A DNA stretch of 39,532 bases from a virus. The stretch's first letter is position 1; each line of letters begins with the position of its first letter. This document shows, piece after piece, positions 1,143 through 29,941 of this stretch. The notes under the pieces were generated by a model, which saw only the letters and a program-made list of their open reading frames with translations, was not told the DNA's origin and searched no databases. The position numbers were made by a program, and so were the translations under genes. The stretch lies in the UHGV virus genome UHGV-1361184; one strand, given 5' to 3'.

Positions 1143-1526
1143 TTACCTCGCTGTAACCTGCTTACTTGTACGATGACCAGCTGCGAAAAGCGCAACTTTT
1201 GGCAGGCAGACACCAGTTTCTGGTTGCTTATGTCCAAACTCATTCGCGTACACAATGGCCGCTCTCTCCAGATTGCGTCTGTATTCTTTCTGTTGCCAGA
1301 TCACGTCCTGTGCCATGAACTTAATTGGCTTAGCGTCTTCTATGCGCTCAGGCGTTTCGTGAGTACCTTTAGCCTGAATCTGCGCTCTGCTTAGAGTAGG
1401 GCGGTGTAATACTTCTGAACTTATTGCTTCTTCGCGGGCCAGCACGCCGTTAGCTAATGCCTTTGCCTTTAAACGCTCACGACGACGAGAACGTGAATTG
1501 CCTTTGAACTGAGTTCTGCGTGTCAT
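1143..1526 (-). CDS. N: N-family transcription antiterminator (P22 gp24-like)
   Basis: Arg-rich motif GNSRSRRRERLKAK near N-terminus; C-terminus ...LPKVALFAAGHRTSKQVTAR resembles P22 gp24 as I recall it; GGAGG RBS; first gene downstream of PL. Confidence 0.65.
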   Translation of the reverse strand: MTRRTQFKGNSRSRRRERLKAKALANGVLAREEAISSEVLHRPTLSRAQIQAKGTHETPERIEDAKPIKFMAQDVIWQQKEYRRNLERAAIVYANEFGHKQPETGVCLPKVALFAAGHRTSKQVTAR

Positions 1527-1988: not shown

Positions 1989-2014
1989 CAAAGAAAACCC
2001 GGCTCTGTGGCCGG
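1989..2014 (-). terminator. Intrinsic terminator ending the cI-side operon (tIMM-like position)
   Basis: Minus-strand hairpin CCGGC-CACAGA-GCCGG followed by TTTTCTTTG, immediately after the stop at 2015-2017. Confidence 0.55.
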
Positions 2015-2393
2015 TTAGGAATCAAGGTCAGGTAGCATGATTTTCTCAATCAACGTCAATGCCCTTTGGTCTCGTTCAGCAAAATATTTAGGAGCGTACT
2101 GAGGCAGCCACACTTCGTTGAAGTATTGTTTGAAATCTGCAATATTCGTTTGGGTATAGACGTACCGGGAATGTCCGGCCATCTGGGTACTCATGGTTAT
2201 ATGTTGGGAATGTCTTCGGCTCAACCCCCCGGTTGTCACGGAGCCATTGCGAGAAAACCCTACCCTCTGAAATATCAGGGACCATTTTTTCTGGCAGCGT
2301 ATATCCGGCCTGTTCAAGTGGCGCAACCAAGTTAAACGTCAGTTCATTAAGCATAGAAAAGTGCGTATGAGGAACTCTGCCTCGGTTTGTCAT
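2015..2393 (-). pseudogene. Disrupted ORF downstream of KilA-N gene (two overlapping frames, 2088..2393 and 2015..2326)
   Basis: N-terminal frame (MTNRGRV...YPDGRTFPVRLYPNEY) and C-terminal frame (...NIADFKQYFNEVWLPQYAPKYFAERDQRALTLIEKIMLPDLDS) both look protein-like; terminator follows the second frame's stop; first frame is in-phase with the KilA-N ORF. Confidence 0.3.
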
Positions 2394-2432
2394 ATACCGC
2401 TTAAGGTGGATAGGGAGTTCGGCAGGCGCTCT

Positions 2433-2774
2433 TTAACCTGACATCCACTCACGCACCCATCTCGATACTTGCACTGCAAATTTTGGAGATAGCCACTGAG
2501 CTAAATTAATTGCGATGTCTGGATGAACCCAAGTCCCTTGATTCTCTGCTCTTCCGCCTTTAAATGATTGAATTAACTCCGATATGGGAATCCCCATATC
2601 GCGTGATAATTCATCAAAAAAATCTTGTGTTGTTTTTAGTCGTGTATAGTCAGCAAGTAGCTTCCCCGCAGACTTGCACATCGCGGTGGCATTGATGTAT
2701 CCGTCTTTGGTGCGAAGATGGATGACTTCTCCATCAACTTCTCTAGCGATTAATGCAAGTTGAAATTGTGTCAT
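2433..2774 (-). CDS. KilA-N domain protein, co-oriented with and directly downstream of cI
   Basis: Motifs GYINATAMCKSAGK and GTWVHPDIAINLAQWLSPKFAVQV typical of KilA-N domains as I recall them. Confidence 0.6.
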   Translation of the reverse strand: MTQFQLALIAREVDGEVIHLRTKDGYINATAMCKSAGKLLADYTRLKTTQDFFDELSRDMGIPISELIQSFKGGRAENQGTWVHPDIAINLAQWLSPKFAVQVSRWVREWMSG

Positions 2775-2805
2775 AAATCATCCTATTACGTGAAAAATAA
2801 AACAA

Positions 2806-3522
<717 letters not shown>

Positions 3523-3529
3523 TTAAATC

Positions 3530-3593
3530 TATCACCGCAAGGGATAAACTTCTAACACCGTGCGTGTTGACTATTTTACCTCTAGCGGTGATA
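3530..3593. promoter_or_regulatory. OR operators OR3-OR2-OR1 with PRM
   Basis: TATCACCGCAAGGGATA (3530-3546), TAACACCGTGCGTGTTG (3553-3569), TACCTCTAGCGGTGATA (3577-3593); PRM -10 TAGATT on minus strand at 3526-3531. Confidence 0.9.
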
Positions 3594-3595
3594 AT
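3567..3595 (+). promoter_or_regulatory. PR promoter
   Basis: -35 TTGACT (3567-3572) and -10 GATAAT (3590-3595) with 17-bp spacer, overlapping OR2/OR1, upstream of cro. Confidence 0.85.
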
Positions 3596-3619
3596 GGTTG
3601 CCTGTACTAAGGAGGTTGT

Positions 3620-3820
3620 ATGGAACAACGCATAACCCTGAAAGATTATGCAATACGCTTTGGGCAAACCAAGACGGCTAAAGATCTCGGCGTATATCAA
3701 AGCGCGATTAACAAGGCCATTCATGCAGGCCGAAAGATTTTTTTAACTATAAACGCTGATGGAAGCGTTTATGCGGAAGAAATAAAGCCCTTCCCAAGTA
3801 ACAAAAAAACAACTGCATAA
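3620..3820 (+). CDS. cro: Cro repressor (66 aa)
   Basis: [66 protein letters not shown], lambda Cro with about two substitutions as recalled; GGAGG RBS. Confidence 0.95.
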
Positions 3821-4286: not shown

Positions 4287-4448
4287 ATGACAAAACGTCG
4301 TAAGAAATACCAGGAAAAAGAAGAGATTCGACACCCTGATTCACCTGAGGGATTAGTGGTAGCCGCAGCAAATAACAGGGCGTTCGCAGAGCGCCTTGTT
4401 GGTGTTTACAGACTAGCCAAAGCAGGAGTGAAACATGGGCGTCGTTAA
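4287..4448 (+). CDS. Small basic ORF (53 aa) between cII-like and O-like genes
   Basis: ATG with AGGAG RBS (4277-4281); stop overlaps the O-like start; below the 60-aa cutoff of the ORF track. Confidence 0.35.
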   Translation: MTKRRKKYQEKEEIRHPDSPEGLVVAAANNRAFAERLVGVYRLAKAGVKHGRR

Positions 4449-5325
4449 GTTAGCTGATTACAGGCATAACCCTGTACAACATCAGGAGGCATCCAGTATG
4501 GGGTATGTCTCTATACACCGCCAGTTTATGGACAGCAGGCTCTATAAGGACTCTCAGGCAGTACATCTTTGGCTTCACTTAATCCTCAAGGCTAATCACG
4601 AATCTACTGTCGTCAATACGGATATCGGTCCGATAACTGTTGATCGCGGTCAGATGATAACTGGACGCCCGTCGCTGGTCAGAGAAACATTCATCCCCGA
4701 CAACAAAGTTCGGAGCTTATTACGGACTTTTGAGTCGAAAGGGATGCTTAATATTTGCTCGATGGGGAAGAAATTTAGCCTGTTTACAATCGTTAAATAT
4801 GACGATTTTCAGGCAAAAAATTGTCCAACGGTTGTCCAACGGTTGTCCAACGCAAACACCAGTAATGGCGCGGCTCTCAGCGGAGATTGTCCAACGGTTG
4901 TCCAACGGTTGTCCATAAACAATAATATAAATAATATCTCTAATACTGACGTATTAGAGAGTACCGCAGCAGACAAAAAGTCTGACAAGAAAAAACCTTC
5001 CGTTAGCTGTCAGGATGTTGTCGATGCTTACCACGAAATCCTTCCTGAAGCGCCAAAAATCCGCGCACTGAATGACAAGCGTAAAAACCAGATCCGAACG
5101 TTCTGGCGCAAAGCCGGAGTGATAACCCGCCAGCTCGACGGGCATGGGTTCACGATGCAGGACTGGAGAAATTATTTGAGCTACGTAGGCGAAAATTGCC
5201 GATGGATGTTCGAAGAGCGCCCAAACCATCAGCGCGGAACCGTCTGGCACAAAAAGGGATTTGATTTCCTGCTTAACGATAATACCTACCTGAAAGTTCG
5301 TGAGGGTGAACACGATGACCGATAA
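4435..5325 (+). CDS. Replication initiator, lambda O-like architecture (296 aa)
   Basis: Strong AGGAG RBS; iteron array embedded in the coding sequence; followed by helicase gene. Confidence 0.7.
   Translation: MGVVKLADYRHNPVQHQEASSMGYVSIHRQFMDSRLYKDSQAVHLWLHLILKANHESTVVNTDIGPITVDRGQMITGRPSLVRETFIPDNKVRSLLRTFESKGMLNICSMGKKFSLFTIVKYDDFQAKNCPTVVQRLSNANTSNGAALSGDCPTVVQRLSINNNINNISNTDVLESTAADKKSDKKKPSVSCQDVVDAYHEILPEAPKIRALNDKRKNQIRTFWRKAGVITRQLDGHGFTMQDWRNYLSYVGENCRWMFEERPNHQRGTVWHKKGFDFLLNDNTYLKVREGEHDDR
4821..4917. repeat. Replication origin iterons (two clusters of 11-bp direct repeats TTGTCCAACGG) plus flanking AT-rich tract
   Basis: TTGTCCAACGG x3 at 4821-4853 and x2 plus a variant at 4888-4917, followed by AT-rich ATAAACAATAATATAAATAATAT. 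Confidence 0.75.
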
Positions 5326-10480: not shown

Positions 10481-10555
10481 GGGTCAGTCGTATAAAGGTC
10501 ATTACGGAAGGCTGTTAACCTTCTTATCGTGGTTCGAGTCCACGCTGTCCCGCCA
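10481..10555 (+). tRNA. tRNA-like gene, anticodon GUU (Asn) by hand fold; non-canonical acceptor and D stems
   Basis: Acceptor GGGTCAG/CTGTCCC (one T-T mismatch), anticodon stem GAAGG/CCTTC with loop CTGTTAA, T-arm CGTGG-TTCGAGT-CCACG, 3' GCCA. Confidence 0.45.
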
Positions 10556-10560
10556 AATAT

Positions 10561-10636
10561 GCTGGTTTAGCTCCAATGGTAGAGCAGTCGCCTTGTAAGC
10601 GAATGGGTAGCGGTTCAAATCCGTTAACCAGCACCA
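10561..10636 (+). tRNA. tRNA gene, anticodon UGU (Thr) by hand fold
   Basis: 76 nt: acceptor GCTGGTT/AACCAGC, D-arm GCTC-CAATGGTA-GAGC, anticodon loop CTTGTAA, T-arm AGCGG-TTCAAAT-CCGTT, 3' ACCA. Confidence 0.55.
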
Positions 10637-28948: not shown

Positions 28949-29017
28949 AGTTGAAGCCCCAACTGCTGGAACAGTCAGGGCTTCGGTATCGTAAAACCAC
29001 GCATAGGAATTAACGAC

Positions 29018-29941
29018 ATGAAAAGTATAGCAACAGCAGTATCTACTATCAACGTGCCATTCCACGGCGCAGAGCTTTATGTTGTCAATCACAACGGCGA
29101 GCCGTACACCCCAATGAAACCTATCGTTGAGGGAATGGGTATGGATTGGGCTTCACAGTTTACAAAGTTAAAACAAAGATTTGCTAAAGGTATTGTGGAA
29201 ATCGCAATACCTTCAGTTGGCGGCGTGCAGACCATGATTTGCCTTGCTTTACGTAAACTGAATGGCTGGTTGCAAACCATCAGCCCTAACAAAGTCCGCC
29301 CTGAAATCCGCGACAATGTAATCCAGTATCAGGAAGAGTGTGACGATGTGCTCTACGAGTACTGGACTAAAGGTCATGTGGTTAACCCACGCAAAGCTAA
29401 AAAGGCGTTGCCGGGTAAAATCACCACTGAACAGCAGGAAGCCATTAAACAACTCGTCATGAGTCGCGGTCAGTCTCTGCCAAAGGAAAAACAGGCTAAG
29501 GCGATGATCACCATGTGGTCGTCACTGAAATCCCATTTTGGATGTTCATACAAAGAAATCAGTGAGGAGCAGTTTACCGAAGCACTGTCACTTGCAGCTC
29601 GAGTTCCGCTTGAAGGTGAGTTCATTGGCAAACAAGAGAAGAAAACCAACGAGCTTTCTGCAAAAGAAGCAAACAGCCTTGTATGGTTATGGGATTATGC
29701 CAACCGTTCGCAGGCATTATTCCGCGAACTGTATCCGGCATTAAAACAAATTCAATCGAACTATTCCGGCAGATGCTACGACTACGGTCATGAATTCTCG
29801 TATGTTATCGGAATGGCGAGAGACGTTTTAATCAATCACACACGAGATGTTGATATCAATGAGCCAGACGGACCAACGAATCTTTCCGCATGGATGAGAC
29901 TTAAGAATAAAGAATTACCTCCTTCAGTACATAACTACTGA
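29018..29941 (+). CDS. ant: Antirepressor Ant (P22 immI)
   Basis: 307 aa directly downstream of mnt-arc; N-terminus [23 protein letters not shown]... Confidence 0.8.

What the first reader, a model, noticed from the sequence alone, without database searches (positions are those of the whole stretch)
2015..2805. rexAB-position cluster downstream of cI: KilA-N gene followed, in the same frame past a TAA, by a frame-disrupted ORF and a terminator
In lambda the genes co-transcribed with cI from PRM are rexA/rexB, an exclusion system. Here that slot holds a 113-aa KilA-N protein (2433..2774). Its TAA is followed 39 nt later, in the same frame, by an ORF (2088..2393) that then appears to shift frame around 2140-2170 into a second protein-like frame ending at 2015, right before an intrinsic terminator. 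Either this is a decaying multi-domain KilA-N gene, or two or three small lysogeny-expressed proteins of unknown function. Either way it is a lysogen-expressed accessory locus with no assignable function.
Basis: partly seen in the sequence, partly recalled or inferred. Interest (0 to 1): 0.6.

Follow-up and report, generated by a model that had tools for sequence, protein, structure and literature searches.

The report
Dead BstA phage-defence gene after cI
The three small reading frames downstream of the lambda-type repressor are the broken remains of one 253-codon gene of the BstA abortive-infection (anti-phage defence) family, so this is an ordinary though widely spread pseudogene, not a new set of small genes.

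Summary
On the minus strand, cI (3519..2806) is followed by a 113-codon KilA-N ORF (2774..2433), an in-frame ORF 39 nt later (2393..2088), a frame change near 2142/2143, a tail ending at 2015, and a terminator (2014..1989).

Relatives settle what it is. E. coli D5, ML35 and phage PhiR5_2 carry one intact 253-aa gene at the same place. The window differs by GAA->TAA at codon 114 (T at 2435), a 2-bp deletion (between 2143 and 2142), H218Y (2125) and a silent G9A (2766). Repairing the first two lesions restores the intact protein.

That protein has a KilA-N domain plus a BstA_C domain. It falls in PHROG 6287 with Salmonella BTP1 BstA (hhalign probability 97.8%), a prophage abortive-infection protein encoded just after cI. 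Across 80 species representatives the fused single ORF is the norm.

The locus is therefore a pseudogenised, divergent bstA homologue in the rexAB slot. At most a 113-aa KilA-N stub is made. The same broken haplotype occurs on at least 1000 public contigs, so it is not a sequencing error. The same TAA also occurs in a second haplotype family; whether by recurrence or recombination is unresolved.

Interest is low to moderate.

The parts
2806..3519 (-). cI repressor (237 aa). First gene of the PRM transcript that would also carry the locus.
   Evidence: 98% identical to lambda cI. The OR/PRM region 3505..3640 is 97% identical to lambda.
2741..2803 (-). Position equivalent to the BTP1 aba self-immunity DNA element (29 bp upstream plus the first 34 bp of the gene). 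Assigned by position only; includes the SD AGGA and the silent G9A change at 2766.
   Evidence: aba coordinates come from PMC8585504. The region is identical to the intact D5 allele except G9A. No sequence signature exists to test it.
2433..2774 (-). KilA-N domain fragment: codons 1-113 of the ancestral gene plus the premature TAA.
   Evidence: Pfam KilA-N E=8e-27. PHROG 6287 E=4e-28. The exact 113-aa sequence occurs on at least 1000 contigs.
2433..2435 (-). Premature stop: GAA(E114)->TAA. The G340T change is the T at 2435.
   Evidence: Alignment to intact alleles. It lies in the interdomain linker of the AF2 model, residues 113-121.
2144..2432 (-). Untranslated remnant of codons 115-211 (linker plus the first two-thirds of the BstA_C domain), in the original frame. 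Contains the mechanical ORF 2393..2088.
   Evidence: PHROG 6287 E=7e-30 for the ORF 2393..2091. No SD before ATG 2393.
2142..2143 (-). Site of the 2-bp (TC) deletion, nt 633-634 of the intact gene, which shifts the frame.
2015..2142 (-). Remnant of codons 212-253 plus the original stop codon, now out of frame. Carries H218Y (C652T at 2125) at a nearly invariant residue.
   Evidence: A precomputed Pfam BstA_C (weak) hit falls on the equivalent tail ORF in relatives.
1989..2014 (-). Rho-independent terminator ending the cI operon: stem 2014..1999 plus T-run. A 9-bp deletion unique to the window brings it directly against the stop codon.
   Evidence: Homologous to the lambda sequence after rexB.

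Best explanation
The interval 2015..2774 (minus strand) is a pseudogene of a bstA-family abortive-infection gene sitting in the rexAB slot of a P22-like phage that has lambda immunity.

In intact relatives, one 253-aa protein is encoded directly after cI and ahead of the shared terminator. It has an N-terminal KilA-N/APSES-type DNA-binding domain (about residues 8-112), a short linker (113-121) and a C-terminal BstA_C domain (122-253). It would be co-transcribed with cI from PRM in the lysogen.

By analogy with the tested BstA proteins of Salmonella BTP1, E. coli NCTC10963 and Klebsiella Kp52.145, the intact protein would block DNA replication of superinfecting phages and abort the infection. 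A short DNA element at the 5' end of its own gene (aba) would spare the resident prophage.

In this window the gene is inactivated by E114->TAA in the linker, by a 2-bp deletion at codons 211/212 that removes the last 42 residues from the frame, and by H218Y. At most the 113-aa KilA-N domain can be made, so BstA-type exclusion is most likely lost.

Shown: the lesions, the homology, the synteny and the spread of the allele. Inferred: transcription from PRM, the abortive-infection activity of this untested subfamily, the existence and position of aba, and loss of function.
For: Lesions and synteny
- An intact 762-bp gene (WP_000191544.1) sits at the same position in E. coli D5 and ML35 and in phage PhiR5_2.
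- The window differs by G9A, G340T (TAA), a deletion of nt 633-634 and C652T. Repairing the two lesions restores 253 aa identical to the intact protein except H218Y.
- The flanks match: cI is 98% and OR 97% identical to lambda, the terminator is homologous to the one after lambda rexB, and N follows.

Family assignment
- Pfam KilA-N E=8e-27.
- PHROG 6287 'BstA abortive infection system' E=1.8e-82 over the full length, the same family as BTP1 BstA.
- PADLOC BstA E=2.5e-20.
- BLASTP to BTP1 BstA: 29% identity, E=5e-15 over the C-domain.
- hhalign probability 97.8% over 187 columns.
- Precomputed Pfam BstA_C plus KilA-N on all 115 listed homologues longer than 200 aa (120 listed, of 2748 clusters found).

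Fused ORF is ancestral
- 74 of 80 species representatives have one ORF of 250-297 aa.
- The AF2 model (pLDDT 91.8) shows two domains, and the stop falls in the linker.
- The frameshift removes the invariant residues F215, F219, W223, Y231 and F232.

Lesions are real
- The identical haplotype occurs in 11 independently fetched assemblies and in further IMG/VR and metagenome contigs.

BstA biology comes from PMC8585504.
Against: - This subfamily (canonical KilA-N, 253 aa) shares only about 29% identity with tested BstA proteins, and only clearly in the C-domain. The E. coli entries seen in that paper's homologue table were 849-897-bp genes and WP_000191544 was not found there. Abortive-infection activity is therefore extrapolated.
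- Outside Enterobacterales the same architecture often sits next to IS1595 transposases rather than repressors. The family's role may be broader than prophage defence.
- The 113-aa fragment keeps a good SD and a complete folded domain, and its sequence is unchanged across at least 1000 contigs. Some residual or new activity is not excluded.
- No expression data are available.
Confidence: 0.9

Rival explanations
1. The E114* allele is a selected, functional truncation rather than a dead gene. A stand-alone KilA-N DNA-binding protein is expressed with cI. It might act as a non-abortive regulator or excluder, as a dominant-negative or decoy against BstA of co-resident prophages, or as a partner of a retained aba element. 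The effector domain has been discarded.
For: - The stop lies exactly in the interdomain linker and leaves a complete domain with its own SD.
- The same G340T occurs in a second haplotype family, 339C-340T in E. coli H5/H6, L103 and L136, where the rest of the frame is open. It probably also occurs in a Klebsiella background (P0004 plus P0033).
- Only 1 of 109 possible single-nucleotide nonsense changes is this one.
- Secondary mutations on the broken haplotype fall downstream of the stop: 5 events against 1 synonymous change upstream.
Against: - The numbers are too small for a selection test.
- H6 and L136 look mosaic around the site. One origin plus recombination is as parsimonious as recurrence.
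- The E114* truncation was not found in the 86%-identical E. coli paralogue or in two other homologues.
- Other truncations of 69, 81, 93, 124, 144, 175, 176 and 239 aa also exist, as expected for plain decay.
- Abundance can be explained by hitch-hiking with the lambda-immunity module, which appears in many different prophage backbones.
Confidence: 0.08
2. The pieces are two or three independent small lysogeny-expressed genes. This would be a natural split form of the system, with the KilA-N and BstA_C parts working as separate polypeptides.
For: - TAA-only alleles with an otherwise open C-terminal half exist. RefSeq annotates them as two genes.
- Owen et al. noted a few homologues that have only the N- or only the C-terminal region.
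Against: - In the window the C-terminal half is itself frameshifted. It loses five invariant aromatic residues and carries H218Y.
- There is no SD before ATG 2393.
- The fused ORF is found in 74 of 80 species representatives and in the listed database homologues of full length.
- Intact alleles that are 99.3% identical at the nucleotide level show the separation is a recent mutation.
Confidence: 0.015
3. The stop and the frameshift are sequencing or assembly errors, or are bypassed by programmed read-through and frameshifting. On this view a full-length BstA-like protein is still made.
For: The two lesions are small, and each alone could look like a base-calling error.
Against: - The identical four-change haplotype occurs in many independent assemblies from different projects and technologies.
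- Intact alleles need no recoding.
- TAA followed by A is an efficient stop (established knowledge).
- There is no slippery heptamer at GAATATTGCAG (direct reading).
Confidence: 0.005

Closest known systems
BstA of Salmonella prophage BTP1, with BstA-Ec and BstA-Kp (Owen et al. 2021, PMC8585504; PHROG 6287; PADLOC BstA; Pfam PF26567 BstA_C)
   Same: - Two-domain build: a KilA-N-type N-domain plus a homologous C-domain (29% identity, hhalign probability 97.8%).
- Encoded immediately downstream of, and co-oriented with, the cI-type repressor of a P22-like or lambdoid prophage.
- Ends in its own Rho-independent terminator ahead of pL/N.
   Different: - The ancestral protein is 253 aa rather than 282-307 aa.
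- Its N-domain is a canonical Pfam KilA-N, not merely 'KilA-N-like'.
- This subfamily has not been tested experimentally.
- No aba element can be recognised by sequence.
- In this window the gene is broken by a nonsense mutation, a frameshift and H218Y.
RexA/RexB of phage lambda
   Same: - Same genomic slot: between cI and the shared terminator, transcribed from PRM.
- Same general role in intact relatives: prophage-encoded abortive infection.
- The flanking DNA (cI, OR, terminator, oL region) is homologous.
   Different: There is no sequence or domain similarity to RexA or RexB. Similarity to lambda is interrupted after cI and resumes about at the stop codon. The mechanism is different: replication block versus membrane depolarisation.
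KilA-N / APSES DNA-binding domain proteins (P1 KilA, phage Bro/Ant-type proteins, yeast Mbp1)
   Different: The ancestral C-domain is BstA_C, not KilA-C/ANT or Bro-C (no such Pfam hits). The stand-alone form here arose by truncation.
Variable immunity-region cassettes of wild lambda-immunity phages (Degnan et al. 2007, as cited in PMC8585504; records EF120455-EF120458)
   Same: Lambda cI/OR with non-rex genes between cI and the terminator. The flanks match HK544, HK542 and mEp332.
   Different: Those records carry other inserts. Among phage records, only PhiR5_2 holds this gene in close form, intact, after a lambda-type cI.

Membership tests
BstA abortive-infection family | N-terminal KilA-N(-like) DNA-binding domain | tested here: met
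   [not shown]
BstA abortive-infection family | C-terminal domain homologous to that of BstA-BTP1 (Pfam BstA_C) | tested here: met
   BLASTP 29% identity, E=5e-15. hhalign probability 97.8%. PHROG 6287 for both proteins and for the window fragments. PADLOC BstA E=2.5e-20. Precomputed PF26567; the local Pfam copy did not report it. In the window this domain survives only as out-of-frame remnants.
BstA abortive-infection family | One uninterrupted polypeptide joining both domains (a functional gene) | tested here: not met
   TAA at codon 114 and a 2-bp deletion at codons 211/212. The window therefore holds a pseudogene of the family, not a working member.
BstA abortive-infection family | Located directly downstream of, and co-oriented with, the prophage repressor, with its own terminator | tested here: met
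   The cI stop is 31 nt before the ATG. The terminator stem is at 2014..1999 and N lies downstream.
BstA abortive-infection family | Cognate aba DNA element overlapping the 5' end of the gene that gives self-immunity | not testable with these tools
   aba is defined functionally, and the paper showed that immunity is specific to each cognate BstA. The positional equivalent 2803..2741 is conserved, with one change (G9A) against the intact allele.
BstA abortive-infection family | Abortive infection and inhibition of phage DNA replication | not testable with these tools
   This needs plaque, survival and replication assays. No member of this 253-aa subfamily was identified among the tested or tabulated homologues.
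Lambda RexAB exclusion system | Homology to RexA and RexB | tested here: not met
   Only the flanks (cI and the terminator/oL segment, query positions 884-1001) match lambda. Pfam, PHROG and PADLOC give no Rex hit.
KilA / Ant-type antirepressors (KilA-N plus KilA-C/ANT) | C-terminal ANT/KilA-C or Bro-C domain | tested here: not met
   [not shown]

The most novel reading that the evidence does not exclude
The linker-stop allele (E114*) is not mere decay but a selected 'KilA-N-only' variant. The phage sheds the costly abortive effector domain. It keeps a cI-co-expressed DNA-binding domain and the aba-equivalent DNA at the gene's 5' end. This would let it escape or interfere with BstA of related prophages, acting as a defence 'cheater' or anti-BstA. 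On this view the same stop arose more than once.
Probability: 0.08. Interest if true: 0.55.

Novelty: new member of a known kind. Interest (0 to 1): 0.25.

Why it matters
The rexAB position of this lambda-immunity, P22-like phage once held a BstA-type abortive-infection gene that is now dead.
- It corrects annotation. The 113-aa 'KilA-N domain-containing protein' in RefSeq and the 'hypothetical protein' after it are fragments of one pseudogene.
- Inactivated alleles are common: 5 of 22 close alleles in complete E. coli genomes and 10 of 31 in IMG/VR. This fits frequent loss of a costly defence.
- The broken allele still carries the region where the self-immunity element lies in BTP1. It is therefore a natural 'effector-minus, aba-plus' construct for testing whether phages can keep the key while dropping the lock.
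- None of this changes current concepts.

Tried and rejected
1. Sequencing error was rejected. The identical haplotype occurs in many independent assemblies.
2. Programmed recoding was rejected. Intact alleles exist and there is no slippery site.
3. RexAB or Ant/KilA-C identity was rejected. There are no domain hits.
5. I tried to decide whether G340T arose independently in the two haplotype families. All four 339/340 combinations exist, but H6 and L136 are mosaics. This stays unresolved. Exact look-ups of hypothetical E114* truncations in three more divergent homologues found nothing. Neighbouring nonsense truncations were absent or only on contigs under 3 kb. There is therefore no support for a family-wide hotspot.
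7. A literature search for post-2021 mechanistic work on BstA or KilA-N found none.
8. An Rfam scan found no RNA family in the interval.
9. I tested whether the repressor-downstream context is general for this subfamily. It is not. Only 2 of 61 upstream ORFs were S24 repressors, and 11 were IS1595 transposases.

Full report
**What is in the sequence**

On the minus strand the order is as follows.
- cI: 3519..2806, 237 aa.
- A 31-nt spacer containing an AGGA Shine-Dalgarno.
- A 113-codon ORF, 2774..2433, ending in TAA.
- An in-frame ATG 39 nt later that opens an ORF 2393..2088.
- A protein-like tail in another frame, ending at TAA 2017..2015.
- A G+C-rich hairpin (stem 2014..1999) followed by GTTTTCTTTG.
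- Further downstream, N (1526..1143).

cI is 98% identical to lambda cI and the OR/PRM region is 97% identical to lambda. The terminator and the sequence beyond it are homologous to the lambda segment that follows rexB. The 'rexAB position' is therefore literal. Similarity to lambda is interrupted after cI and resumes about at the stop codon of the insert. The window as a whole is a P22-like genome, 96% identical to phage IME10 over two-thirds of the first 25 kb. It has large uninterrupted ORFs throughout.

**The pieces are one broken gene**

Megablast found the same cI-to-terminator segment in E. coli genomes and in phage PhiR5_2. In E. coli D5 and ML35 and in PhiR5_2 the interval holds a single annotated 762-bp gene, WP_000191544.1, 253 aa. 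Alignment shows that the window gene differs from it at four places.

| Change | Window coordinate | Effect |
|---|---|---|
| G9A | 2766 | silent |
| G340T | 2435 | GAA E114 -> TAA |
| deletion of nt 633-634 (TC) | between 2143 and 2142 | frameshift |
| C652T | 2125 | H218Y |

Restoring the G and the TC in silico gives a 253-aa protein identical to the intact one except H218Y. H218 is nearly invariant in an alignment of 40 homologues. The frameshift puts the invariant residues F215, F219, W223, Y231 and F232 out of frame. The ATG at 2393 is preceded by ...CTTAAGCGGTAT, which is not a usable ribosome-binding site. The window alone also lacks 9 bp between the stop codon and the terminator stem.

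**The lesions are real and inherited**

The exact intact 253-aa protein is on 924 contigs.

Eleven independently fetched assemblies carry precisely the same four changes. Ten came from different neighbourhoods and the eleventh is E. coli EC2641. Some of these are complete-looking prophages and some are decayed remnants. E. coli strain 81 has the same haplotype with further damage.

| Sample | Close alleles | Intact | Window haplotype | TAA only | Other stop |
|---|---|---|---|---|---|
| 5426 complete E. coli genomes | 22 (>=95% identical) | 17 (MB51 inferred from its match to DY612) | 3 | 2 | 0 |
| IMG/VR scan unbiased for G or T at the site | 31 full alleles | 21 | 8 | 1 | 1 (W177*) |

Other truncated forms of 69, 81, 93, 124, 144, 175, 176 and 239 aa also exist in the same 90% cluster. 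Sequencing error and programmed recoding can be dismissed.

**What the ancestral gene is**

- Pfam finds a canonical KilA-N domain at residues 13-112.
- PHROGs places the whole protein in phrog_6287, 'BstA abortive infection system, replication inhibitor', with E=1.8e-82 over positions 6-301 of 304. BTP1 BstA and both window fragments fall in the same family.
- PADLOC's BstA model matches residues 120-237.
- BLASTP to BTP1 BstA (st313-td, 307 aa) gives 29% identity over the C-terminal 120 residues, E=5e-15.
- A profile of 40 homologues aligns to BTP1 BstA with hhalign probability 97.8% over 187 columns that span both domains.
- All 115 listed database homologues longer than 200 aa carry precomputed Pfam PF26567 (BstA_C) plus PF04383 (120 listed, of 2748 clusters found).
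- An AlphaFold model of an 86%-identical homologue (pLDDT 91.8) shows an N-domain at 8-112, a lower-confidence linker at 113-121 and an alpha/beta C-domain at 122-253.

In 74 of 80 species-representative genomes from many phyla the two domains are one ORF of 250-297 aa. The fused gene is therefore ancestral, and the premature stop falls in the interdomain linker.

**How it most likely works or worked**

Owen et al. (PMC8585504) showed the following for BstA.
- It is encoded just after the repressor of prophage BTP1 and is expressed in lysogens.
- It co-localises with incoming phage DNA, blocks its replication and aborts the infection.
- A 63-bp DNA element (aba: 29 bp upstream plus the first 34 bp of bstA) spares the resident prophage.
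- Each homologue has its own cognate aba.

By homology and synteny I infer that the intact D5-type protein does the same under PRM control. In this window only the KilA-N stub can be produced, so the exclusion function is most likely lost. The aba-equivalent segment (2803..2741) is retained with one change (G9A), but its function cannot be judged from sequence.

Two cautions apply. This 253-aa subfamily is distant from the tested proteins, and it was not identified in the paper's homologue table, where the E. coli entries seen were 849-897 bp. Outside Enterobacterales its genomic context also differs (see 'Side observation' below).

**An unresolved detail**

The same G340T stop occurs in a second haplotype family with the neighbouring synonymous site changed (GGC TAA instead of GGT TAA). 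These alleles have no 2-bp deletion and an otherwise open frame.
- E. coli H5/H6, behind an unrelated XRE-type repressor.
- IMG/VR contig L103.
- Metagenome contig L136.

Protein data suggest a Klebsiella allele of the same kind (P0004 plus P0033), but its DNA could not be fetched.

Only 1 of 109 possible single-base nonsense changes is this one. However, H6 and L136 are mosaics around the site, so one origin plus recombination is about as parsimonious as recurrence. The equivalent truncation was not found in three more divergent homologues. Neighbouring nonsense truncations are absent or occur only on very short contigs. On the window haplotype, secondary mutations seen so far lie downstream of the stop (five events) or are synonymous upstream (one). 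The numbers are too small to test selection. I therefore keep 'functional KilA-N-only allele' as a low-probability rival.

**Side observation**

Among ORFs immediately upstream of homologues in other phyla, 11 of 61 are IS1595-family transposases and only 2 are S24 repressors. In one genome, a 2258-bp unit appears at 99.9% identity at two sites. It consists of a transposase plus a KilA-N/BstA_C gene bounded by 32-33-bp perfect inverted repeats. A rearranged third copy is also present.

**Verdict**

'No assignable function' and 'several small proteins' are not supported. The locus is a pseudogenised, divergent member of a known prophage defence family sitting in a known hotspot. It is of low to moderate interest. 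The one open question is the common linker-stop allele.

Noticed in passing
L035:1394-3653 and L038:1394-3653 (Thalassobaculaceae MAG OY729512.2); also L077/L078: A 2258-bp unit is present at two sites at 99.9% identity, with a rearranged third copy (L037). It consists of an IS1595-family transposase (315 aa) followed by a KilA-N+BstA_C gene (261 aa), bounded by perfect 32-33-bp terminal inverted repeats. In 11 of 61 species-level loci the ORF just upstream of the BstA-like gene is an IS1595 transposase. The BstA-like gene seems to travel as an IS passenger outside Enterobacterales.
   Followed up: partly
window 2435 versus L017:2900, L103 and L136: The identical E114->TAA change occurs on two backgrounds: GGT-TAA (window type, with the 2-bp deletion) and GGC-TAA (E. 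coli H5/H6, L103, L136, no other lesion). All four combinations of sites 339 and 340 exist. Recurrent mutation and recombination could not be told apart.
   Followed up: partly
L017:2500-2560, L018:2440-2500, L019:2440-2500: In prophages where the bstA-like gene follows unrelated repressors, the ~60 nt upstream of it still contain a remnant of the last ~27 nt of a lambda-type cI (…CAGTGGCCAGA.GA.ACGTTTGGGTGA). The cassette seems to have moved out of a lambda-cI context together with the cI 3' end.
   Followed up: partly
window 2014-2017: The window alone lacks 9 bp (ATGTTATTC) between the stop codon and the terminator. This shortens the stem by one G-C pair and places the hairpin directly against the TAA. 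All other alleles examined keep these 9 bp.
   Followed up: partly
window 28949-29016 (-) and 29018-29941 (+): An Rfam sar RNA match (81 bits) lies next to a 307-aa ORF. This is the signature RNA of the P22 immI region, so the 307-aa ORF may be the antirepressor (not checked). The phage would then combine lambda immC with a P22-type immI.
   Followed up: no
window 10481-10636 (+): Two adjacent tRNA genes, Asn-GTT and Thr-TGT.
   Followed up: no
window ~4800-4910 (+), inside ORF 4435..5325: The 296-aa ORF upstream of the DnaB-like helicase ORF contains the near-repeat CPTVVQRLSN … CPTVVQRLSI. This implies direct DNA repeats inside the gene and is reminiscent of origin iterons within lambdoid O-type genes.
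   Followed up: no
window 3525-3545 (-): The window differs from lambda at two adjacent bases between OR2 and OR3 (TAGATA in lambda, TAGAAG here), a hexamer I recall as the PRM -35, and at a few bases near the cI start. Any effect on PRM strength is unknown.
   Followed up: no
L003 (E. coli strain 81): The same broken haplotype appears with extra damage: a 1-bp deletion at nt 545, two substitutions, a frameshifted cI and a truncated neighbouring gene. This is a later stage of decay of the same module.
   Followed up: partly
[not shown]
   Followed up: partly
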